Shown in pieces: positions 6,888 through 58,860 of a stretch of DNA of 64,000 nt. The DNA is taken from IMG/VR virus record IMGVR_UViG_3300031278_000001; one strand, given 5' to 3'. Position 1 is the first letter of the stretch, and every line of letters starts with the position of its first letter. This DNA comes from an uncultured virus (IMG/VR IMGVR_UViG_3300031278_000001). Taxonomy: Duplodnaviria; Heunggongvirae; Uroviricota; Caudoviricetes. Under the pieces are notes generated by a model. It ran no database searches and was not told where the DNA came from. It saw only the letters and a program-made list of their open reading frames with translations. The position numbers and the translations under genes were made by a program.

Positions 6888-9800
6888 TTAATTAATATTT
6901 TTTTCCTTTCTTTTAGATTTTTGTTTTTTTACTCTCTCAATTTCTTTTTCCCCTAATTGATGTACTATTTTCTCAATACTCGCCTTTGTTTTTCTACCCA
7001 ATTGTCCATTTGTTATCGAATCCAAAGCCTTACCAGGAATAGTATAATCAACTGTTCCTGATTTTTTAAACTCAGGGGGTATCAACATATTTGTCTCATT
7101 AATATCTGATAATTTCAGATCTATATTAAGACCTTTTTTCTTAACAGCAGTTTTAACCTCCTCAAATACTTTCTTACGCATTTCTTGATATAGCTTATCA
7201 TGAACACTTCCCTGCTCTGCCAATAATTGTTCAACCTCATAATCAAAATCCATATCAAACACATTACACAAAGTCTTACTCGAAATGAGATTTTTATCCC
7301 ATAAATTTATAGCCATATTCTTATAATTAGTATCATCTAAAAGATTCGCCTTATATTGCCAATCAAAATCAGGAATAACAGGAGTCCTATCTTTGTAAGG
7401 TCTCCTAATACCATGATCAAGATCACACTTTTTAATCTCATAAAAATCATGCTCAACAGCTACCGGCAAAAACACATTTTTCTTCCAACTATTTTCCAAC
7501 ATTTGTCTTACTGGAATATATCTGGACAATAAAACTCTAGCGCCAATAGAAGCATTGTTATAAGTAGGACCAACACCAGATGTCAATGCTTTATTCGTAA
7601 ATAATGCCGTGAGAACTCGCTCTTCTATTTGCTGAAGATCCGCAAAAATATTAGGAAACTTACCAGCAGAGCCAACCACTTCATAACTAACTACATTCGG
7701 AACAACAAGTTTAAAATCTGGTTGCTGAGTGGAATCCAAAATTAAATTAGATAAAGATTGTAAATATTCTTGCGTTGGGAAAAAACTATCAGATCCTACC
7801 TTCCAAATTTCTTTAGGCGCAATATGTCTTTCAGCTACCGCCATCTGGGCCTCCCTCAAACGAGTTTCATGAATCAAATCTATCAAAGCACGTAAGACAA
7901 TCGAAGAACCCCTAATTGCATAAGGACTCTTCCTTTGCATAATCATCAGATTGAAAGTATCCAATTCGATAGCCTCAGTTGTTTCAATAGCTTCTACAAT
8001 ATCATGAGGCAATTTACCTTTCATGGATTCGCCTTCTTCACCACTGGTAAATAATTCTTTTATACTCTCTCCAAATCTCAATTTATAAATATAATCACTT
8101 TCATTACCAAGAATAGGAGTACCTATTATATCAACATATTCCGGTTGTAATAAAGCCGAATCACTCCACCAACCTTCTTTATCATCCCAATATAAATAGG
8201 TGAAAACCTCACCTATCAACCACCATTCTCTAAGTTGATCATACATCAACATCAAGGCATTCATTTGATCCAACATATCTTCATAAAATTGATGTATCTT
8301 GGGATCAGTAATACCTTTTATTCCAAAACGAGAAAGAGGTAGTTCAGTATGTAAGCTGATGCAATTAAAACACCCCACACCTTGCACCATATAAGTATGT
8401 TCTTTCTCTACCTCAATATTATAAACTACTCCATCAAAAGTCTCTTTTTCTATAGAAGAAATTTGCCTATATATTCTTTTATGTTCAGTATCAACAAAAA
8501 TATTTCTGCGAATTAAACTCTGAGTTAAACTCTTCTTACAATCACCACCATACACTTTTTCAAATGCCCAACGAGGCATAACCCCCCTCCATCTATTATG
8601 CTTTCCTACGATATTCCAACCATCTTTTCTGTTTCCTTCTGTAGGCACTATTTCTTTTAATGACACAGGAATATGCAACCTCTCTGCTATAAATTTAATT
8701 TGCCAAGCCAAATCTTTAGACACCGTAACATAAACAACTTCTTTTTTTCCAAAATGTCCGTCTCCTTTGAGATAGGATAACAAAAACACCTTTTGAAACT
8801 CAAGAGAAGCATATACAATATCATCACTCAATTTTTTAGTGGATGCCCCTTTCCCCACATGCTTAAGACAAAGACTGGCTAATTCTGTAGAACTGACAGC
8901 CACTTGATTATAATTTTTAGTGTATGATAAACCAAGATTATCCAAGCAAGAATAAATCTCCTCAATATATTCCTCTTCCGAACGATAAAAACACCATTGA
9001 ACTTTATCATTACCTACAACACCACCATTTAAGTCTTTTAAATGTTTATGTAATTTATCTGAATATTCTTTTTCGCTCCATTTTTTCTCAGCTCTTTCAT
9101 GTATTCTCTTACTTTCTTGATCACTGACCAATTTAGAACCAGGAAATCTTTTCAGATATTCTTCTCCCTTAACTCCATGTTTAAAGCAAATATGAGAACC
9201 TAACTGTAAAAACTCTTTACCGCATATTTTGCACTTAACTTTTTCATCTTTCCCATATTTCTTAATAGGACGAGAATATTTTCTATATTTATTAACAAAC
9301 CCTTCAGCGGCATAATATCCCAACAATATTGCATGCTCTATTTTTAAATCGTTCTCTTTAACAAAATCATTCATGGTTGTTATCAGATAATCTTTGGGTT
9401 TAATTTTTTCCACTGTTATCTGTTCAATTTTTAAATCATTAGAAGAACATTCATGATATTTACAACACCCACTTTCACCAAAATAACATCTCTTCGGGCT
9501 TTTTCTAACTTTACCATTCTTATCTTTATAATTTTTAAATTTACATTTAAATTCTTCTTCTCTTATGACAGGAAACTTATGTTCCCCTGTAACTTTAATT
9601 TCCTCCCTTACTCCCATAATTTTAAGTTTGAAAATTTCACCCTCATATTTAGGATTAAAAGTCTTAGTAACTTTCCTAGGTTGAGATAAATGATTTAACA
9701 CTTCTTCCCCAACTTTAATTTCCTCAATATTTTTAACAGTACCGTCAGCCATATTCACAGGTGTTCCTTCCACAAAACAATTCCCCACCAATGGGTGAAA

Positions 9801-10076
9801 AGTATCAAAATAGCGGCAATATTGGTTCAAAGTCGCCATGTCCCACGGGATATAGTAATTAATAAAACTAAGCAAAGGAGAATACCATTGTGGAGCTTCT
9901 GTCTTTAAATCACCGGTACGCCTCATATTAGATCCTGCAGTAACTGCCCTGGAAGTATAACCATTGCCATAACCACCATACCCACCCGCACCTTTGAAAA
10001 CAGGAGCACCTATTCCAGCGGATACTTTTCGTGTACCCACTTCTTCAATAAAATCCCTAGGTCTCTTATCAATCAT
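6888..10076 (-). CDS. Portal protein precursor containing an intein
   Basis: Extein motifs HPLVGN|CISLHTELPLS, REWWLIGEVF, RGSSIV.RAL, GPTYNNAS; about 590 aa after splicing. Confidence 0.85.
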   Translation of the reverse strand: MIDKRPRDFIEEVGTRKVSAGIGAPVFKGAGGYGGYGNGYTSRAVTAGSNMRRTGDLKTEAPQWYSPLLSFINYYIPWDMATLNQYCRYFDTFHPLVGNCFVEGTPVNMADGTVKNIEEIKVGEEVLNHLSQPRKVTKTFNPKYEGEIFKLKIMGVREEIKVTGEHKFPVIREEEFKCKFKNYKDKNGKVRKSPKRCYFGESGCCKYHECSSNDLKIEQITVEKIKPKDYLITTMNDFVKENDLKIEHAILLGYYAAEGFVNKYRKYSRPIKKYGKDEKVKCKICGKEFLQLGSHICFKHGVKGEEYLKRFPGSKLVSDQESKRIHERAEKKWSEKEYSDKLHKHLKDLNGGVVGNDKVQWCFYRSEEEYIEEIYSCLDNLGLSYTKNYNQVAVSSTELASLCLKHVGKGASTKKLSDDIVYASLEFQKVFLLSYLKGDGHFGKKEVVYVTVSKDLAWQIKFIAERLHIPVSLKEIVPTEGNRKDGWNIVGKHNRWRGVMPRWAFEKVYGGDCKKSLTQSLIRRNIFVDTEHKRIYRQISSIEKETFDGVVYNIEVEKEHTYMVQGVGCFNCISLHTELPLSRFGIKGITDPKIHQFYEDMLDQMNALMLMYDQLREWWLIGEVFTYLYWDDKEGWWSDSALLQPEYVDIIGTPILGNESDYIYKLRFGESIKELFTSGEEGESMKGKLPHDIVEAIETTEAIELDTFNLMIMQRKSPYAIRGSSIVLRALIDLIHETRLREAQMAVAERHIAPKEIWKVGSDSFFPTQEYLQSLSNLILDSTQQPDFKLVVPNVVSYEVVGSAGKFPNIFADLQQIEERVLTALFTNKALTSGVGPTYNNASIGARVLLSRYIPVRQMLENSWKKNVFLPVAVEHDFYEIKKCDLDHGIRRPYKDRTPVIPDFDWQYKANLLDDTNYKNMAINLWDKNLISSKTLCNVFDMDFDYEVEQLLAEQGSVHDKLYQEMRKKVFEEVKTAVKKKGLNIDLKLSDINETNMLIPPEFKKSGTVDYTIPGKALDSITNGQLGRKTKASIEKIVHQLGEKEIERVKKQKSKRKEKNIN
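8364..9779 (-). mobile_element. 472-aa intein with LAGLIDADG endonuclease and inserted C2H2 zinc finger
   Basis: Block A CFVEGTPV, block B VTGEHKF, LLGYYAAEG and FLLSYLKGDG, block F VYNIEVEKEHTY, terminal FN followed by Cys+1. Confidence 0.92.
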
Positions 10077-10740: not shown

Positions 10741-12194
10741 GGTTTACAAAACCTACCAAAATTAATAAGTTTTGAAGGACGCCTTTCTTCGCCCAGTTAA
10801 ATTGTTAAACATTTAAACTCCCAGAGACCAGTTCTTTCTGGAAGATTTTACTTGTGGGATTCCCGCTCACATAACAGAGATTATCACAATCTTCTTTTAG
10901 AGATTGCATTCTACTCTGAAGTCCTGTAAGGACAGCTTTCCGATTATCTCTCAATGTTCTCCATAAATACCAGGAATGAATTCGTTTTGTCTCTCTTCCT
11001 ACAAGGTTCAAGACTAATTCCTTCACCAATTTTGATGGGTACTTATAAAGAGATAACTTCTCATTAAACCCTAATCCTCTTCTTGCAATAACATAAGCAG
11101 CAGACTCATGAATAGATAAATTATACATTTGTTGATATTTAAGTTTTCCAATTACAGATGTAAATGCTGGATTGACTTTTTTATACATAATTCCGTTTTC
11201 AATACATTTTCGTTCAAGCAGTGTTAATAATTTCTTCCATACAAAATTGCTTTTAATGCGATTGAATCGTTTTCCCTGATTTTCAAACTCTTTTTTAAAT
11301 TTCAAATTTTCAAATATAATTCCTTTATTATTTTCAAGTGCGAATTTGATTATCTGTTTCACAAGGCATCCTATCTCATAATCTCTTTTATTTGTTGAAG
11401 CAAAAAACATTCTATTATTAACTACAGTAAAAGATTTGACCAAATTCCCATCATTGTTTATATTAGAAATTGCAATCTTGTCGGGATTTATATCTGCACC
11501 AATAACTCCATTTGAAAAATCAATCACCATTTCTGGATTTTCTACTTCATAATCAATAATCACTCTATAATGTTGTTCATCTTTTTTAAGTAATCGAATA
11601 TTATAAGAAATGCCTAAACCAAATAAAGAGAAAAGTCGTTTTTTAAACTTAACAGGGATAAACAAGTTGTATTCTTCAAATTTTCTGTTACCAATTGTTA
11701 CTCTTAAATAAAAATTACCATTCTTATTTAATAATCTAATATTCGGATTGCCTTTTTTGGTTACATCTCCTCTTGCATATATTTGATTATCTCTTTTAGA
11801 TTTCCACTCAGCATTGGATATTTTACCTTTTATAAGAGAATCCCAATTCTTTTTCCCGCCGAAAATTACTTTTTTGCCTTTGACCCTTATATACAACCCT
11901 TGAGCTTGTTTAACTGCATCTGAAATTTGACGAGTATTTAAAGATTTATATTTTATTTTTATTTGGTTTCTAACTTCATTAAAATTTAATTTATCTTTCT
12001 GAAATCTACAAAAAGCAAATCGATAAGCAGAGGACCAATCTGAAACTAATCGATTGAAGCTGCCAAAATTAGAACTATATATTTCACCATGTATTACTTG
12101 TCTCATATATCTAATTCTTTGTTTTCATCTTTGAAGTATTTTTTGGTTATTTTTGATGTGCATTGGTAATTATTTGGCAACTGTTCTTATACCT
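10741..12194 (-). mobile_element. Non-autonomous IS200/IS605/IS607-type element carrying only tnpB
   Basis: tnpB ORF with no tnpA; ttcttatacct at both flanks (10730..10740 and 12184..12194). Confidence 0.7.
10805..12106 (-). CDS. tnpB: TnpB-related RNA-guided nuclease
   Basis: RuvC-I GADINP, RuvC-II IFENL, VNPAFTS, RuvC-III region HESAAYVIARR; very basic protein. Confidence 0.85.
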   Translation of the reverse strand: MRQVIHGEIYSSNFGSFNRLVSDWSSAYRFAFCRFQKDKLNFNEVRNQIKIKYKSLNTRQISDAVKQAQGLYIRVKGKKVIFGGKKNWDSLIKGKISNAEWKSKRDNQIYARGDVTKKGNPNIRLLNKNGNFYLRVTIGNRKFEEYNLFIPVKFKKRLFSLFGLGISYNIRLLKKDEQHYRVIIDYEVENPEMVIDFSNGVIGADINPDKIAISNINNDGNLVKSFTVVNNRMFFASTNKRDYEIGCLVKQIIKFALENNKGIIFENLKFKKEFENQGKRFNRIKSNFVWKKLLTLLERKCIENGIMYKKVNPAFTSVIGKLKYQQMYNLSIHESAAYVIARRGLGFNEKLSLYKYPSKLVKELVLNLVGRETKRIHSWYLWRTLRDNRKAVLTGLQSRMQSLKEDCDNLCYVSGNPTSKIFQKELVSGSLNV

Positions 12195-21323: not shown

Positions 21324-21340
21324 TATACCCCCAAATTACA

Positions 21341-21480
21341 TGGAGTGGTTGGGAATCGAACCCAAGTTCTTGAGATAAAGAGCAGGAAGACCTACACTCC
21401 CTGACCGTTTTGTTAAAGCGGTTCCGTGAACACCGCTATAGGCTTTAGTTGTTCCATCCCAGTCAAAACCTTTCCACCCC
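21341..21480 (-). ncRNA. ssrA: Miniature tmRNA (140 nt)
   Basis: 5' GGGGTGGAAAGGTTTTGAC; acceptor GGGGTGG/CCACTCC-A with G3:U70; T-arm TTGGG-TTCGATT-CCCAA; P2 TGGGATGGA/TTTATCTCA. Confidence 0.8.
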
Positions 21481-21652: not shown

Positions 21653-22447
21653 TCAAATATGATGTCTCTTCCCACTAAAAAATTTAAACATATCCCGTCT
21701 GAGCTTGCATAACTTACTAATATCACCATCCCAATCTTTAGGATAAAAAACTATACCCTCTGCTGCCATTCCCTCAAAACCGATAGTCTTATTAACTCCC
21801 TGTGCTGTTCCACCAAAATCTACTTTCTTGGATCTCTTACGTTTACACAAACTCCATAACCCTTCAAACGCTTCTTTGACTATCGTATATTTCTCTGCCG
21901 ATGTCTTATCTTTACACAGTGGAACAATATCTTTATTCCAAAACTTATATTCATAATGCTTTTTCAAATATATAAATGGCATCCACAGATATCTATCCAA
22001 TTTATAGGGATTGCCATTCACCTTTGGGCCAATAAGCTCACCAAAATATTGTCCATTTTCCAAATCATTTAATTTTAGGTACTCTCTTTCAATAGATTTC
22101 TGTATTCCTTCAACAAACCGAAAACCACCTTTGCTCCAAAAAGGAATAGCATTTGTCCGGTTAAACATTCGGACAATATCATGATCTTCAATTACTATCG
22201 ATACACAGCTTCCATCCAATTTCTCCACTGCCACAACATTGTCTGTAAAGATCCACTCAAACCCGGGAGTTATTTCCGATGTCACCACATAATGATCTTC
22301 TTCATCTAATTGTCTTACAAACGGACTGCTTAATTTTGGCATGTCATGTATTTTTATTGGTTCCTTTTCTTCTTCTAACGGTTCAGTATGACATATATCA
22401 TCTATACAGGTTTCTACCGTATCCATTGCTTTATCTTCCTCACACAT
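21653..22447 (-). CDS. ATP-dependent RNA ligase-like protein
   Basis: Motif I EKLDGS, GELIGPKVNGNP, EGIVF, CKLRRDMF. Confidence 0.8.
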   Translation of the reverse strand: MCEEDKAMDTVETCIDDICHTEPLEEEKEPIKIHDMPKLSSPFVRQLDEEDHYVVTSEITPGFEWIFTDNVVAVEKLDGSCVSIVIEDHDIVRMFNRTNAIPFWSKGGFRFVEGIQKSIEREYLKLNDLENGQYFGELIGPKVNGNPYKLDRYLWMPFIYLKKHYEYKFWNKDIVPLCKDKTSAEKYTIVKEAFEGLWSLCKRKRSKKVDFGGTAQGVNKTIGFEGMAAEGIVFYPKDWDGDISKLCKLRRDMFKFFSGKRHHI

Positions 22448-22488
22448 TTTTATCTTCCTCCTTTTTCTTTATAATAATCTTTCATCTC

Positions 22489-23103
22489 TTATCCAACACC
22501 TTCCGCAAAATCTATAGCCATTTGTTTCGCATCATCCAATGTCTTAGCCTCCCACTCACCTTTACCCCATTTAGAAGGGAAATCCAAAAATGCCTCACCA
22601 ATATTTCCTCTTATTTTTTCATTAGGAGTGTTTTCACCAAACACCCATGAAACTCTTACTCCATCATCAACAAACTCACCTTTAATTTCTCTATGGTCTT
22701 TATCTTTCCAAAAGAGAAGACAAGAATCCAGAAAATCATCTTCATTTTTAGAACCATACCCAGCATCACCTTTTTTAACTTTTGAGCCTATTCCAAAACC
22801 ATAGAGTGCTCGATGTGACCAACCATACCATTTCTCTTGCTGAGGATTATAACCTATGTTGACAGTATGACCACTAATATTTTGTGAATTCTGCAATTGT
22901 TCTGTAATACCCAATCGAAGCAAAAATTTAAACCCATCCTTTTCCATTCCCTCCCGGGTGAAATACGATCCATCAATCTTAGAATAATAACACATCTCCT
23001 TATCATTTGGAATATCACTTGGTTTCTTCTCTGCAACCTCATCAATAAAACTCATTAACATTTTTTGTGTAATTCTTCTTTGTCTAACTTTTTCATCTTT
23101 CAT
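22489..23103 (-). CDS. Phage hypothetical protein
   Basis: KWYGWSHRA.YGFGIG and AKTLDDAKQMAIDFA motifs; GGAGG RBS before ATG 23103. Confidence 0.6.
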   Translation of the reverse strand: MKDEKVRQRRITQKMLMSFIDEVAEKKPSDIPNDKEMCYYSKIDGSYFTREGMEKDGFKFLLRLGITEQLQNSQNISGHTVNIGYNPQQEKWYGWSHRALYGFGIGSKVKKGDAGYGSKNEDDFLDSCLLFWKDKDHREIKGEFVDDGVRVSWVFGENTPNEKIRGNIGEAFLDFPSKWGKGEWEAKTLDDAKQMAIDFAEGVG

Positions 23104-23124
23104 AACTTTACCTCCAATCTTACG

Positions 23125-23181
23125 TATACAATTTGTATGCAATCATATACAATTTGTATGCAATCATATACAATTTGTATA
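23125..23181. repeat. 21-bp tandem repeat, about 2.7 copies, with palindromic core
   Basis: tatacaatttgtatgcaatca at 23125 and 23146, partial copy at 23167. Confidence 0.95.
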
Positions 23182-31690: not shown

Positions 31691-32559
31691 TTTCTTTGAA
31701 ATCTTTACGCCTTTTATCATATAATAACTTGATGTCATTACGTTTTCCCTCTACCTCTAACTTAGAAAATTCATCTTCATCAGTATCGCTATAAAAATCC
31801 CATCCGCCTCTTAAACAATTATCAATATCATAAAGCATATCTCTTAAGCTCTTATGCACTTTCTTACCATGTAAAGTAATCTTTCCCCCACCATCTATAT
31901 TATAATATACAGAATCTATTTTAGTCTCAATTTTGTACGCATCTTCTAATAATATTAAACCCGGACAGGGAGAAAACGGAATCTCCACCTGACGTCTGAT
32001 CAACTCCACATTTCGGTGTGTCCAACAAACTCTTCTTACAACATCCACCTCATATCTGATCATATATTCATCTCTCCTAAACTTCTCCAAATTTTTATCT
32101 CAACCAATCTTGCATGTTGCTTACAATTATTGCTTAATTCATTTAAGTTTCTCATCTATACTATATCTTTTCTTTTCATTTCTACCTTCTTTAAATCTTT
32201 CTTCAATTGCAGGCAATATTCTATACTTAGAATAATTACGAACCCCTTCGTATATAGCATTAAAAACCCTCTGGTAAGACTCAAATCCATCTTGTAAAAT
32301 ATCATTCACTTTTTCAACCGTCAATTTTGTCTCAATTTTTATTTCCTCTTTCATCTTTATCTCCTATTTTCAAGCAATAAATCATCTACAATCTCTTTCC
32401 CCCACCCTCGATCTTTATTTTTCTCATCAAAATCTTTCAAACATTTTTCATTGAACTGAAGAATAAAGTTTAATAAATACTTACTATCTTTTCTCTCTAT
32501 CTTTCCCGATTCATCTTTCATATTCAATCTCCTTTATCTAAAAATTAATTTATATTCTG

Positions 32560-32917
32560 TGGTTCCAGCCGGGATTTGAACCCGGAATCCAGCTTTCGGC
32601 GGTAAAGCAAGTTTTCTTTATATTGTTTTTGTCACCCACCAGGGAGTCGCTGTTCCCATGTCATATATTATCGGGTAGATAACCATCTAACACCCACAAA
32701 GCTACCTTACACGCCCGGACTTGCCAGTATACCGAAATATCAGACATTTAATTTTATCATCCTATTAACCATCTCATCCTCAGGAATCTTTTGAATCCCT
32801 TACAAAGATTTATAATACAATGATAAACACTTCAAGTGGCTCCCCTATTAAGGTCAAATGTTAAATACTGCAGAACATTATCAGCCCTAGCCTCTACCAT
32901 TTTGGCTTACTGGAACC
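32560..32917 (-). ncRNA. 358-nt tRNA-like RNA with a structured insert of about 290 nt replacing the anticodon arm
   Basis: GGTTCCAG/CTGGAACC; D-arm AGCC-AAAATGGTAGA-GGCT; T-arm CCGGG-TTCAAAT-CCCGG; nested internal stems. Confidence 0.7.
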
Positions 32918-33013
32918 ATATTAGGCGGGCGAACCCCTTATACAATAATAAAAAAAATAAGGAGGTTATTTGCACTAAAAATAATATAAGAGATCCACTC
33001 ACATATCTTTATA

Positions 33014-33088
33014 TCGGGAAGCTTGGATTCGAACCAAGGATCCCGTGCTCCCAGGGCACGTGTGTTGACCTGGCTACACTACTTCCCG
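33014..33088 (-). tRNA. tRNA-Pro(TGG)
   Basis: CGGGAAG/CTTCCCG-A; anticodon arm CGTGC-CCTGGGA-GCACG; T-arm CTTGG-TTCGAAT-CCAAG; no encoded CCA. Confidence 0.92.
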
Positions 33089-33095
33089 AAATATT

Positions 33096-33181
33096 TGGTG
33101 CGGGAAAATAGGATTTCCCTATTCTGCACTTGTTCCCCATAGAGAGCGTTGCTTACTCAATCCATGAAGAAAATTTCCCGC
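33096..33181 (-). ncRNA. Degenerate tRNA-like RNA with encoded CCA
   Basis: GCGGGAA/TTCCCGC-A-CCA; T-like arm AATAG-GGAAATC-CTATT. Confidence 0.55.
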
Positions 33182-33223
33182 ATATATTATATTTTCAAAG
33201 AACAATACAACTTACTCTTATAT

Positions 33224-33263
33224 AGTATAATCAAACATTCTTATTTGTCAAGGGGGCAATTTA
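33224..33263 (-). promoter_or_regulatory. Conserved early sigma70 promoter upstream of the tRNA cluster
   Basis: TAAATTGCCCCC-TTGACA-N16-TATACT. Confidence 0.8.
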
Positions 33264-58029: not shown

Positions 58030-58860
58030 CTATAACATACTATCAGAGTTGTATTTATTATAAAATCTTTTCAAAGAACTATAAGTGTTTGTAGGTGAAT
58101 ACCTAAACACCTCACTATATTTCACCCATGCAGTTGAACCAGAAATATAATCTATAAACTTACGGATAGATGTCAACCTCAAAACAAGCTCCTTTCTCTG
58201 ATTGCGCCCAATCTTAATCATCAGATCCTGATTCGTGTTAAGCAAAACATATAGATCACTGAAAAATTTATCAACTTCTTTTTCATTGAATCTACCCATA
58301 GTAAAAGTTATTCTCGGTTGATTTTTTTCAAAGTCAAATTTACCTTTTTTCATATAAAAGTGTAAAACCACATTTGGATTTAAATTCATAGCAGGAATAT
58401 GTTTCTCCTTATCCACATACCAACGTTCCCAATAATTAAAGAACTCCGCATAGGAGAAAGTAGTCAATTGGAACCTATCAGCAGATTCCCTGATACCCTT
58501 ACTTTGTATTCCAAAAGATTTTAACTGATTATATAAACATTCAAGATAAAGTCGGTCCTGTGATGCCACCTCATAAACCGCACTACTATTTGAAATGGGA
58601 CGCATTGATGCACCACCTAGAATAGTACCATCCAATAAATCAACACAATCATTCCAATCTGCTCTCTTATCATCAAGATGATTACTAACATCTTTATCAT
58701 GAACACAATGCTTATAACCCTGGGGTTTAATGCCTAACTTATCACACCATTTAGAAATTGTAGCAATTGAACAACCACATTCTTCTGATATATCTTTTTG
58801 AGTGAGATGTCTAACTTCAATTGCATCCTTCATATATTCTATATCTTTATATTTTTTCAT
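58030..58860 (-). CDS. HTH plus LAGLIDADG-fold protein with degenerate active sites
   Basis: LTQKDISEECGCSIATISKW; GTILGGA; WY..KEK.IP; FYMKKG. Confidence 0.7.
   Translation of the reverse strand: MKKYKDIEYMKDAIEVRHLTQKDISEECGCSIATISKWCDKLGIKPQGYKHCVHDKDVSNHLDDKRADWNDCVDLLDGTILGGASMRPISNSSAVYEVASQDRLYLECLYNQLKSFGIQSKGIRESADRFQLTTFSYAEFFNYWERWYVDKEKHIPAMNLNPNVVLHFYMKKGKFDFEKNQPRITFTMGRFNEKEVDKFFSDLYVLLNTNQDLMIKIGRNQRKELVLRLTSIRKFIDYISGSTAWVKYSEVFRYSPTNTYSSLKRFYNKYNSDSML

What the first reader, a model, noticed from the sequence alone, without database searches (positions are those of the whole stretch)
32560..32917. tRNA scaffold carrying a branched RNA domain of about 290 nt in place of the anticodon arm
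Seen: an 8-bp acceptor (a G-1:C73 His-like reading is possible), a D-arm with GG and a canonical T-arm enclose nested stems. These are GGGCT/AGTCC, CAGTAT/ATACTG, ACATTT/AAATGT, TTTATCAT/ATGATAAA, AATCTTT/AAAGATT, GGCG.GTAA/TTAC-CGCC, TAGAT/ATCTA and GGGA/TCCC. I find no anticodon loop and no complete group I core. It lies in a tRNA cluster behind a strong promoter. Inference: an unrecognised intron type, or a novel ncRNA that uses tRNA ends for processing and stability.
Basis: partly seen in the sequence, partly recalled or inferred. Interest (0 to 1): 0.8.

Follow-up and report, generated by a model that had tools for sequence, protein, structure and literature searches.

The report
Giant tRNA-shaped phage RNA, not decoding
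A large uncultured salt-marsh phage carries, right behind a normal proline tRNA gene, a 358-base RNA gene that keeps the two ends and the corner of a histidine-type tRNA but has about 290 bases of folded RNA where the codon-reading part should be, so it most likely works as a tRNA look-alike and not as a tRNA.

Summary
On the minus strand, 32917 to 32561, an 8-bp acceptor stem (G-1:C73), U8/A9, a D arm with GG and a consensus T arm enclose 297 nt, made up of two long arms and a 12-nt linker. ARAGORN in intron mode calls this one split tRNA frame in the window and none in 20 shuffled windows. The whole RNA folds better than shuffles (z about -4).

Rfam gives no group I, RNase P or tmRNA match at E<=10. 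None of 6468 single in-silico excisions gives a His anticodon or a canonical loop with group I splice-site bases.

A diverged relative in other salt-marsh runs keeps both ends and an 87-nt core. It replaces two segments with unlike sequence of nearly the same length (288 against 280 nt), in otherwise unalignable DNA.

Best reading (about 0.5): a non-decoding, tRNA-framed structured RNA cut out of the tRNA operon by tRNA-processing enzymes. An unrecognised intron (about 0.17), a degenerate RNase P relative (about 0.07) and a relic remain possible. There are no RNA data and no covariation alignment. The same phage also has a 143-nt mini-tmRNA-like gene at 21338-21480.

The parts
33224..33251 (-). 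Sigma-70-type promoter-like site TTGACA-16-TATACT in front of the RNA operon
   Evidence: 11 of 12 matches. The scan found 10 such sites in the region against 9.1 expected, so the site itself is a consensus match only. Its sequence at 33216-33247 recurs in other contigs of runs X3-X5 (records 7, 11, 15).
33095..33182 (-). Structured Y-shaped leader RNA closed by a 7-bp stem GCGGGAA/UUCCCGC followed by ACCA
   Evidence: MFE -34.7 kcal/mol, z -3.28, 1 of 200 shuffles fold as well. The sequence was read. No Rfam match.
33013..33089 (-). Ordinary tRNA-Pro(UGG), first tRNA of the operon
   Evidence: ARAGORN (score 118.8). Rfam RF00005, 60.1 bits.
32918..33012 (-). 95-nt spacer that folds into one long hairpin
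   Evidence: MFE -21 kcal/mol, z -2.44, 0 of 200 shuffles fold as well. Its last 50 nt are alignable in the relative (piece 32868-32967).
32910..32917 (-). Acceptor 5' strand GGUUCCAG (first G read as G-1)
   Evidence: Pair probability 0.99-1.0.
32889..32907 (-). D arm AGCC-AAAAUGGUAGA-GGCU, preceded by U8 and A9 at 32909-32908
   Evidence: A14, G18, G19 and A21 equivalents are present.
32872..32888 (-). Conserved segment A-GGGCU-GAUAAUGUUCU. GGGCU pairs with AGUCC (32717-32721) in the MFE. Alternatively it forms the hairpin AGGGC-UGAUAAU-GUUCU.
   Evidence: MFE; the hairpin model costs 2.3 kcal/mol more, with pair probability 0.56 against 0.19. The segment lies in the piece conserved in the relative, 32868-32915.
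32722..32882 (-). Arm 1: 161-nt irregular long hairpin at the position of the anticodon loop
   Evidence: One search lists the helices. z -2.02. Its distal 103 nt (32765-32867) are replaced by 107 unlike nt in the relative.
32678..32764 (-). Conserved core: 3' side of arm 1, AGUCC, and base of arm 2. It includes the stretch ACUGGCAAGUCCGGG that is unchanged in the relative.
   Evidence: 11 differences in 87 nt in contigs of runs X4 and X5. Within 32714-32728 no difference is listed.
32598..32715 (-). Arm 2: 118-nt hairpin at the variable-arm position, closed by GGCG.GUAA/UUAC-CGCC
   Evidence: pair probabilities 0.90-0.99. z -2.77 sense against -0.98 antisense. In the relative, three closing pairs stay pairable through C-to-U changes.
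32586..32597 (-). 12-nt linker GAAAGCUGGAUU between arm 2 and the T arm. GAAAG is kept and CUGGA is changed in the relative.
   Evidence: loose end of run X2 behind 32587, compared.
32569..32585 (-). T arm CCGGG-UUCAAAU-CCCGG
   Evidence: The tmRNA and tRNA T-arm consensus aligns to it at 9.6 bits.
32561..32568 (-). Acceptor 3' strand CUGGAACC (last C read as C73). It is followed by ACAG, so no CCA is encoded.

Best explanation
The region encodes a non-decoding, tRNA-framed structured RNA of about 358 nt.

Shown:
- It lies in an RNA operon: promoter-like site, structured leader, tRNA-Pro, spacer hairpin, this RNA, then small ORFs.
- It has a complete tRNA 'top half and corner': an 8-bp G-1:C73 acceptor stem, U8/A9, a D arm with GG, and a T arm.
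- Two long arms, 161 nt and 118 nt, stand where the anticodon arm and the variable arm should be.
- No canonical anticodon loop is present.
- A diverged relative conserves the frame and an 87-nt core.

Inferred:
- RNase P and the 3' tRNA-processing enzymes cut it out of the transcript. RNase P leaves G-1, as it does for bacterial tRNA-His.
- CCA is added, because none is encoded.
- The L-shaped frame gives stability and access to tRNA-binding proteins, possibly including histidyl-tRNA synthetase, whose main recognition element is G-1:C73.
- The conserved junction core and the two arms carry the actual function. Most plausibly the RNA acts as a tRNA mimic or decoy in an early, counter-defence-rich part of the phage genome.
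- The target is not known.
For: - Frame: one split-tRNA call in the window and 0 in 20 shuffled windows. The cloverleaf drawing shows the 8-bp acceptor, the D arm and the T arm. The acceptor pairs have probability 0.99-1.0.
- Tertiary-pair positions read are all filled: U8/A14, A15/U48, G18G19 with U55C56, A26/G44 and U54/A58.
- Structure: z -4.19. The insert alone gives z -2.33 and arm 2 gives -2.77, with the sense strand more stable than the antisense.
- No decoding: of 6468 single in-silico excisions, 754 gave an ARAGORN call. None gave GUG. The best forms carry A34 anticodons (AUA, AAU, ACC) or rest on a hairpin that the relative does not keep.
- No known family: Rfam gives nothing for group I, RNase P or tmRNA at E<=10 in three searches, of 901, 366 and 173 nt.
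- Selection: in contigs of 3 of the 4 runs laid (X3, X4, X5) a relative keeps 32541-32587 (4 differences), 32678-32764 (11 of 87, seen in X4 and X5) and 32868-32915 or -32967. It replaces 90 nt by 94 and 103 nt by 107 unlike letters, 288 against 280 nt in all. The DNA beyond both ends of the element does not align at 80%.
- Context:
  - tRNA-Pro lies 95 nt upstream.
  - A ribosome-binding site and ORF start follow about 20-35 nt after the 3' end.
  - A second non-decoding tRNA-like RNA, mini-tmRNA-like, is in the same window.
  - A Tad6 Thoeris inhibitor gene and an RNA ligase gene lie about 10 kb away.
Against: - No RNA data: no listed run is on record as RNA. Neither the 358-nt species nor its ends have been seen.
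- Only one diverged lineage is known, from one habitat, and I could not read its sequence. There is therefore no covariation test.
- The fine structure is unsettled. AGUCC can pair with GGGCU (31-35), with GGAUU (328-332) or, extended to AGUCCGGG, with the T-stem 3' strand CCCGGCU.
- Arm 1 folds no better in the sense than in the antisense strand (z -2.02 against -2.24).
- The 5' strand of arm 1 is not conserved while its 3' strand is. This fits poorly with a simple conserved hairpin.
- The pattern 'conserved ends plus conserved core plus variable periphery' is also what a self-splicing intron in a conserved tRNA would show.
- The decoy function is pure inference.
Confidence: 0.5

Rival explanations
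1. It is an intron-bearing tRNA gene. The roughly 280-nt insert is a self-splicing or protein-assisted intron of an unrecognised or very divergent type, and its removal yields a small tRNA or tRNA-like RNA.
For: [quoted passage not shown] The range is described in Williams 2020, bioRxiv 10.1101/2020.01.27.920355, read (part 1 of 2). Earlier notes of this scan list many such introns in phage tRNAs (these are leads only).
- ARAGORN's intron mode accepts it as a split tRNA with a 279-nt intron.
- The relative conserves the ends and a core while the periphery varies, as in ribozyme introns.
- The order ACAUUU ... GGAU ... AAAUGU - hairpin CUGA/UCGG - ... GUCC could be drawn as a P3/P7/P8-like pseudoknot. 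This is my reading and is untested.
- The phage carries an RNA ligase gene and a LAGLIDADG endonuclease gene elsewhere in the window.
Against: - Rfam gives no group I (or other intron) match at E<=10 in three searches of decreasing length.
- None of the eight insertion sites around either candidate anticodon stem combines U(-1) with G(omega). The forms that do combine them put the cut outside an anticodon loop (and hand enumeration).
- No internal guide sequence lies next to any candidate 5' splice site.
- The candidate anticodon would differ between the window and its relative: GCC against GUU, or CUU against CUC (loose end). The five bases CUGGA next to it are all replaced.
- No insert-less allele appeared among the contigs of the 4 runs. 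This is weak evidence.
- No tRNA-splicing endonuclease domain was found among the 73 ORFs scanned.
Confidence: 0.17
2. The insert is a strongly remodelled RNase P RNA relative. AAGUCCGGGC would be conserved region CR-I, pairing as helix P4 (with a bulged U) with CCCGGCU near the 3' end, and the terminal stem would be P1.
For: - AAGUCCGGGC (i196-205) is identical to the Rfam RF00010 consensus at that place. It is followed by 4 nt and then an 8-nt stretch with a central AGG, as in the consensus CucC-AuAGGgcA (alignment).
- It lies in the 15 nt unchanged in the relative.
- A 7-bp P4-like helix with a bulged U can be drawn to CCCGGCU, which is preceded by UCAAAU; the consensus there is ACAGAA.
- Weak co-linear echoes exist: ACAG at i265 and GGGUGA at i281.
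- Earlier notes of this scan report miniature RNase P RNAs next to phage tRNA genes (leads only).
Against: - Rfam RNase P models give nothing at E<=10.
- A profile of 30 class A RNase P RNAs finds only the 10-mer, E 0.53 on 360 nt with all filters off, and nothing in the window with default settings.
- Forcing P4 costs 11.4 kcal/mol relative to the tRNA-frame fold.
- Only 26 nt lie between the would-be P5 3' strand and the P4 3' strand, so P15-P18 and P2 would all be missing.
- The conserved A before AAGUCC is a C here.
- The motif also looks like an ordinary tRNA variable loop plus T-stem start, and CCGGG is simply a repeat of the T-stem 5' strand.
Confidence: 0.07
3. It is a decaying relic: a former tRNA-His gene disrupted by inserted DNA and no longer functional.
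For: - No anticodon is present.
- The ARAGORN score is marginal: 101.0, against 118.8 for tRNA-Pro.
- No homologue was found in GenBank phages, in IMG/VR by five DNA patterns taken from the element, in JGI metagenomes or in GTDB genomes.
Against: - The element's ends and core are the only stretches that align at 80% or more in a 5.8-kb contig of the relative.
- The insert length is kept within 8 nt.
- All frame helices are perfect.
- The RNA folds far better than shuffles.
- It sits in a promoter-driven RNA operon.
Confidence: 0.1
4. It is a tmRNA-like rescue RNA, charged with histidine instead of alanine, whose insert holds pseudoknots and a tag-coding frame.
For: - Its size of 358 nt is that of a bacterial tmRNA (recalled).
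- The ends are tRNA-like.
- The repeated GUGGGUG ... ACCC motifs allow alternative or pseudoknotted pairings.
- The phage has a separate tmRNA-like tRNA domain at 21338-21480.
Against: - ARAGORN finds no tmRNA at default settings. At 70% thresholds it gives only overlapping, mutually inconsistent calls.
- The Rfam tmRNA model matches only the 17-nt T arm, at 9.6 bits.
- There is no G3:U70 pair.
- It has a true D stem, which tmRNA lacks.
- No convincing tag frame is present.
Confidence: 0.03

Closest known systems
Stable tRNA-like RNAs of phage tRNA clusters (T4 species 1 and 2 RNAs, rnaC and rnaD; recalled, not read here). Earlier notes of this scan list 80-225-nt 'anticodon-less tRNA-shaped' phage RNAs (leads only).
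   Same: - Encoded beside phage tRNA genes.
- tRNA-like acceptor and T arm.
- No usable anticodon.
- Presumably matured by tRNA-processing enzymes.
- Function unknown.
   Different: - This RNA is two to four times longer.
- It keeps a full D arm.
- It carries two long arms, at the anticodon and the variable positions.
- It has a G-1:C73 end.
- No sequence relationship to any of them was tested or found.
Group I introns in bacterial and phage tRNA anticodon loops (Williams 2020, bioRxiv 10.1101/2020.01.27.920355; Rfam RF00028)
   Same: - A tRNA frame is interrupted by 200-300 nt of structured RNA.
- Standard tRNA finders miss it.
- Exons and core are conserved while the periphery varies.
   Different: - No Rfam match.
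- No U(-1)/G(omega) pair that restores a 7-nt anticodon loop.
- No guide sequence next to a splice site.
- The insert extends into the variable-arm position.
tRNA-His (bacterial type)
   Same: - Encoded G-1 paired with C73, giving an 8-bp acceptor stem.
- Normal U8, D arm and T arm.
   Different: No GUG anticodon and no canonical anticodon loop at all, and 297 extra nucleotides.
tmRNA and 'tRNA-like-domain only' mini-tmRNAs of phages (Rfam RF00023)
   Same: - A tRNA-like acceptor and T arm enclose a large non-tRNA interior.
- Phage-encoded examples exist, including one in this window.
   Different: - No alanine identity pair.
- A real D stem.
- The Rfam model matches the T arm only.
- No tag frame.
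Engineered 'tRNA scaffold' for producing recombinant RNAs in E. coli (Ponchon and Dardel 2007; recalled, not read here)
   Same: A structured RNA is placed in a tRNA body in place of the anticodon arm, so that the cell processes and stabilises it like a tRNA.
   Different: That is a laboratory design. This would be a natural case, and it carries a second arm at the variable position.
Bacterial class A RNase P RNA (Rfam RF00010)
   Same: - A 10-nt identity with the CR-I consensus.
- A drawable P4-like helix with a bulged U.
- A location next to a tRNA gene.
   Different: - No model match.
- No P2 and no P15-P18.
- The P4 partner is the T-stem strand of a perfect tRNA T arm.

Membership tests
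tRNA (Rfam RF00005, cloverleaf) | Acceptor stem, D arm with G18G19, and T arm with the UUCRANU loop | tested here: met
   an 8-bp acceptor, a 4-bp D stem with GG, and a 5-bp T stem with UUCAAAU.
tRNA (Rfam RF00005, cloverleaf) | Anticodon arm with a 7-nt loop, U33 and a purine at 37, and total length about 70-95 nt | tested here: not met
   RF00005 gives no match at E<=10. The only 7-nt-loop hairpin, UGAUAAU, has G at position 33. The RNA is 358 nt long.
tRNA-His | G-1 paired with C73 | tested here: met
   This reading needs no extra nucleotides at positions 7/8 or 65/66.
tRNA-His | Anticodon GUG | tested here: not met
   None of the 754 ARAGORN calls on 6468 excision forms has GUG.
Group I intron (Rfam RF00028 and related) | Match to the covariance model of the catalytic core (P3-P8) | tested here: not met
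   No match at E<=10 in searches of 901, 366 and 173 nt.
Group I intron (Rfam RF00028 and related) | U (or C) at -1 in a P1 wobble pair with a nearby guide sequence, G at omega, and restoration of the host tRNA | tested here: not met
   Enumeration and by hand. No anticodon-loop site has both U(-1) and G(omega), and no guide sequence is adjacent.
Group I intron (Rfam RF00028 and related) | Self-splicing with guanosine | not testable with these tools
   This needs an in vitro assay or RNA reads. No RNA run is listed.
tmRNA (Rfam RF00023) | G3:U70 alanine identity, a D-loop analogue without a stem, a tag reading frame, and a model match | tested here: not met
   No G:U pair in the acceptor. ARAGORN gives nothing at default settings. 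Rfam matches only the T arm, at 9.6 bits.
RNase P RNA, class A (Rfam RF00010) | Model match over P1-P18 | tested here: not met
   No match at E<=10. nhmmer with a 30-sequence profile finds only 10 nt, E 0.53.
RNase P RNA, class A (Rfam RF00010) | CR-I and CR-V forming P4 with a bulged U | tested here: inconclusive
   The helix can be drawn (i197-204 with i345-351), but it costs 11.4 kcal/mol against the T-arm fold. Covariation could not be tested.
Phage non-decoding tRNA-like stable RNAs (T4 rnaC/rnaD type) | Lies in a phage tRNA operon, has a tRNA-like acceptor and T arm, and has no anticodon | tested here: met
Phage non-decoding tRNA-like stable RNAs (T4 rnaC/rnaD type) | Accumulates as a stable processed RNA | not testable with these tools
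   No RNA run is listed.

The most novel reading that the evidence does not exclude
This is a new class of large phage tRNA mimic. A histidine-type tRNA chassis, possibly aminoacylatable through G-1:C73, has had its anticodon and variable arms rebuilt into two functional arms joined by a conserved core. It acts in trans on host tRNA-binding machinery: a tRNA-targeting defence nuclease, histidyl-tRNA synthetase, RNase P or the ribosome. It would be the first natural example of a tRNA scaffold carrying a roughly 290-nt structured RNA.
Probability: 0.3. Interest if true: 0.75.

Novelty: new variant of a known kind. Interest (0 to 1): 0.55.

Why it matters
Phages are known to carry tRNAs and a few small tRNA-like RNAs of unknown role. 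An RNA of tmRNA size built on a complete tRNA-His frame, kept under selection in two diverged phage lineages, would show that phages use the tRNA body as a chassis for much larger functional RNAs.

If it proves to be a decoy or hijacker of tRNA-binding enzymes or defence nucleases, it adds a new kind of weapon to phage-host conflict. It would also be a natural precedent for the engineered tRNA scaffold. If instead it splices, it would be an intron that current models do not recognise.

Either way it is invisible to standard annotation. ARAGORN at default settings and Rfam both miss it.

Tried and rejected
**Searches for homologues that led nowhere**
- blastn against GenBank phages: no match.
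- Five exact or IUPAC patterns from the element in IMG/VR: 0 hits each. One pattern from the mini-tmRNA: 0 hits.
- Portal protein in IMG/VR: no close relative.
- One two-part pattern in JGI metagenomes: 9 loci, all chance matches upstream of ordinary tRNAs or in coding DNA.
- One pattern in GTDB genomes: 1 chance hit in a coding region.
- No whole genome is held for the window.

**Expression**
- No RNA holder is listed among the 6 runs.

**Readings rejected**
- Group I reading: rejected on Rfam and on splice-site enumeration.
- Hammerhead reading of CUGAUAA ... GAAAG: rejected by hand. Only 3 nt stand where helix I should be, and G8 is an A.
- C/D-box hits (snoR15, Z165; E 0.6-4): judged chance, because the 'C box' lies inside a helix.
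- tmRNA reading: rejected.
- RNase P reading: tested and found weak, using 31 fetched class A RNAs, of which 30 went into the profile.
- The hairpin GCUUU-ACCGCCG-AAAGC as an anticodon or variable arm: rejected, because the relative's sequence there cannot form it.
- The helix AGUCCG/UGGAUU: likewise not formable in the relative, if the X2 loose end belongs to the same lineage.

**Other checks**
- No paralogue of the insert exists elsewhere in the window (blastn).
- Neighbouring small ORFs have no informative Pfam or PHROG family, so a synteny-based search for distant relatives was not attempted.

**Literature**
- Three searches found no description of a tRNA-framed RNA of this size in a phage. 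They cover only the held library.
Full report
**What is there**

The feature lies on the minus strand. I number the RNA as i = 32918 minus the window position, so i1 = 32917 and i357 = 32561. Read:
- GGUUCCAG (i1-8) pairs perfectly with CUGGAACC (i350-357).
- It is followed by U and A, the places of U8 and A9.
- Next comes a D arm, AGCC-AAAAUGGUAGA-GGCU.
- At the 3' side, directly abutting the acceptor strand, is a T arm CCGGG-UUCAAAU-CCCGG.

With 8 pairs, two spacer bases and no base between the T stem and the acceptor, the economical reading is a 7-bp stem plus G-1:C73. That is the hallmark of bacterial tRNA-His (established knowledge). The positions of the usual tertiary pairs are all filled: U8/A14, A15/U48, G18G19 with U55C56, A26/G44 and U54/A58. 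No CCA is encoded; the trailer is ACAG. The neighbouring tRNA-Pro also lacks an encoded CCA.

Default ARAGORN and Rfam at gathering thresholds see only tRNA-Pro(UGG) at 33013-33089.

**Is it more than chance?**

- ARAGORN with introns of up to 600 nt makes exactly one split-tRNA call in the 64-kb window, both strands, at 32559-32917 with score 101.0. It makes none in 20 first-order shuffles of the window.
- The 362-nt RNA folds at -111 kcal/mol, z -4.19, with 0 of 100 shuffles as good.
- My own run gave z -3.9 for the whole RNA, -2.33 for the insert alone, -2.02 for arm 1 and -2.77 for arm 2. The sense strand was much more stable than the antisense, except for arm 1.
Five are in the minimum-energy fold and three are alternatives it does not use.

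**Anatomy**

In the minimum-energy fold the tRNA frame is intact.
- GGGCU (i31-35) pairs with AGUCC (i197-201), like an anticodon stem. This closes a 161-nt irregular arm, arm 1.
- One base later a second arm of 118 nt, arm 2 (i203-320), is closed by GGCG.GUAA/UUAC-CGCC with pair probabilities of 0.90-0.99. It stands where a class II tRNA has its variable arm.
- A 12-nt linker, GAAAGCUGGAUU, leads to the T arm.

So the insert does not simply replace the anticodon arm. It occupies both the anticodon and the variable positions.

The fine structure is not settled:
- A hairpin AGGGC-UGAUAAU-GUUCU (i30-46) costs only 2.3 kcal/mol more.
- AGUCC can also pair with GGAUU (i328-332).
- Extended to AGUCCGGG, it can pair with the T-stem 3' strand.

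**Context**

All genes of the window run on the minus strand.
- A promoter-like site, TTGACA-16-TATACT, matches 11 of 12 at 33251-33224.
- It is followed by a Y-shaped structured leader closed by GCGGGAA/UUCCCGC-ACCA (z -3.28).
- Then come tRNA-Pro, a 95-nt spacer hairpin (z -2.44) and the element.
- About 20-35 nt further on is a ribosome-binding site and the start of small ORFs.

The contig is a large, very divergent phage:
- The portal matches PHROG portal families and is 29.5% identical to that of Bacillus phage G.
- Most ORFs have no family.
- The window also encodes an RNA ligase, a Tad6 Thoeris inhibitor, sigma-factor-like proteins, a TnpB-like protein and a LAGLIDADG endonuclease.

**Relatives**

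No homologue was found in any collection searched:
- GenBank phages.
- IMG/VR, by five DNA patterns from the element and by the portal protein.
- JGI metagenomes: 9 loci, all chance.
- GTDB genomes: 1 chance hit.

The DNA is found only in six salt-marsh metagenome runs, none on record as RNA. I laid four of them.
- *The same strain:* some contigs are identical to the window, and in runs X2 and X3 these lack 32347-32513.
- *A diverged relative:*
  - Contigs in X4 and X5 align at 32541-32587 (4 differences), 32678-32764 (11 of 87) and 32868-32967 (19 differences, 2 gaps).
  - The 90 nt and 103 nt between these pieces are replaced by 94 and 107 unlike letters.
  - The X3 contig shows the two end pieces with 288 letters for the window's 280. 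That equals 94+87+107, so I take all of these to be one lineage.
  - Beyond both ends of the element the relative's contig, 5.8 kb in X4, does not align at 80%. tRNA-Pro is not next to the element there.

The frame and an internal core are therefore better conserved than the surrounding DNA, and the insert length is held within 8 nt. This argues for selection on the RNA and against a decaying relic.

The few readable differences fit pairing only weakly:
- C205 to U, and C319 and C320 to U, keep three closing pairs of arm 2 as G-U.
- A188 and U189 change to G and C, and the alignment of the opposite strand stops just where their partners lie.
- A 30-nt loose end from X2 gives the relative's sequence just 5' of the T arm. 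GAAAG and AAAACUUGCU are kept, UUACCGCC becomes CAUUGGUU, and CUGGA becomes UUUAC.

**Is it a split tRNA?**

I cut the RNA in silico at 42 x 154 = 6468 pairs of positions and ran ARAGORN on each form. Of these, 754 were called.
- None has the GUG anticodon that G-1:C73 predicts.
- The best form ('Tyr AUA', 117.4) uses the UGAUAAU hairpin, with G at position 33, plus a variable-arm hairpin that the relative cannot form.
- The others carry A34 anticodons, or loops without U33 or without a purine at 37.
- For both candidate anticodon stems (GGCUG/AAGCU and GGGCU/AGCUG), none of the eight insertion sites combines U(-1) with G(omega). This is the group I signature described by Williams 2020 (I read part 1 of 2).
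- The would-be anticodon would differ between the window and its relative.
- Rfam gives no group I or other intron or ribozyme match at E<=10 in searches of 901, 366 and 173 nt.

A P3/P7/P8-like order can be drawn by eye in i57-201. It needs unusually long junctions and has no P1. I therefore keep 'intron of an unrecognised kind' as a rival at about 0.17. The conservation pattern (ends plus core) would fit it too.

**Is it an RNase P RNA?**

Earlier notes of this scan (leads, not evidence) report miniature RNase P RNAs beside phage tRNA genes. I noticed that the stretch unchanged in the relative contains AAGUCCGGGC, so I fetched real class A RNase P RNAs.

Points for this reading:
- The 10-mer is identical to the Rfam consensus of CR-I. 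The next 12 nt have the same layout: 4 nt, then 8 nt with a central AGG.
- A 7-bp helix with a bulged U can be drawn to CCCGGCU near the 3' end.

Points against it:
- The Rfam RNase P models do not match.
- A 30-sequence profile finds only that 10-mer, E 0.53 with filters off, and nothing otherwise.
- Forcing the helix costs 11.4 kcal/mol.
- There is no room for P2 or P15-P18.
- The partner strand is the 3' strand of a perfect T arm.
- The motif also resembles an ordinary tRNA variable loop plus T-stem start.

I rate this reading at about 0.07 and record the motif as unexplained.

**tmRNA?**

- ARAGORN finds none at default settings, and only inconsistent calls at 70% thresholds.
- Rfam aligns the T arm alone.
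- There is no G3:U70, and there is a true D stem.
- I reject this reading (0.03).

**Best explanation**

The element is a non-decoding, tRNA-framed structured RNA. Shown are the frame, the lack of an anticodon, the structure signal, the operon position and the conservation of frame, core and size. Inferred are:
- maturation by RNase P (leaving G-1), 3' trimming and CCA addition;
- possible recognition by HisRS;
- action as a tRNA mimic through its arms and core.

The closest known things are:
- the small stable tRNA-like RNAs of phage tRNA clusters (T4 rnaC and rnaD; recalled, and two papers holding those names appeared only as listings);
- phage mini-tmRNAs;
- in engineering, the tRNA scaffold (recalled).

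Devoto et al. 2019 (PMC6784885; passages read) reported 'enigmatic' introns in Lak phage tRNAs, but those restore recognisable tRNAs. Three literature searches found no description of a phage tRNA-framed RNA of this size in the held library.

**Verdict**

- The element is a new, unusually large variant of a known but poorly understood kind.
- What is missing: RNA data and a covariation alignment. Both are obtainable.

Noticed in passing
window 21338-21480 (-): A 143-nt RNA gene just downstream of the RNA ligase gene matches Rfam tmRNA RF00023 at 34.5 bits, E 1.9e-12, below the gathering score of 47. It has a full alanine-type tRNA-like domain (GGGGUGG..., G3:U70, T arm, CCACUCCA) but only 71 nt where the model has 300. 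This makes it a tag-less mini-tmRNA-like RNA. Default ARAGORN misses it, and the fold z is only -1.55.
   Followed up: partly
window 33095-33182 (-): The leader between the promoter and tRNA-Pro folds into a Y shape closed by a 7-bp stem GCGGGAA/UUCCCGC, directly followed by ACCA. This is an acceptor-stem-like end. z is -3.28 and there is no Rfam match.
   Followed up: partly
window 32717-32722 with 32567-32573 (-): AAGUCCGGGC is identical to the RNase P CR-I consensus and unchanged in the relative. It can pair, with a bulged U, with the T-stem 3' strand plus two acceptor bases (CCCGGCU). It is either a chance or tRNA-derived motif, or an alternative conformer that competes with the T arm.
   Followed up: partly
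window 32347-32513: Contigs of runs X2 and X3 that are otherwise identical to the window lack these 167 nt. The deletion removes the 56-aa ORF (32357-32527) and joins its first codons in frame to the next ORF, through an 8-nt shared start sequence.
   Followed up: partly
window 33216-33247: The promoter-like sequence recurs, with 2 differences, in short contigs of runs X3-X5 that continue differently on both sides. It looks like a repeated phage early-promoter box.
   Followed up: no
window 21653-23142 (-): An RNA ligase gene (PF09414, E 1.3e-8) lies next to a Tad6 Thoeris-inhibitor gene (PF25188, E 8.7e-38). This suggests a counter-defence and RNA-repair neighbourhood.
   Followed up: no
window 10805-12106 (-) and 58030-58860 (-): A 433-aa ORF has weak TnpB/Cas12f-like TNB and transposase matches, and there is a free-standing LAGLIDADG homing-endonuclease gene. 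Both are mobile-element genes inside the phage.
   Followed up: no
window 6888-10076 (-): A 1062-aa portal protein whose nearest GenBank phage relative is Bacillus phage G, at 29.5% identity over 38% of its length. The phage lineage is otherwise unrepresented in GenBank phages and IMG/VR.
   Followed up: partly
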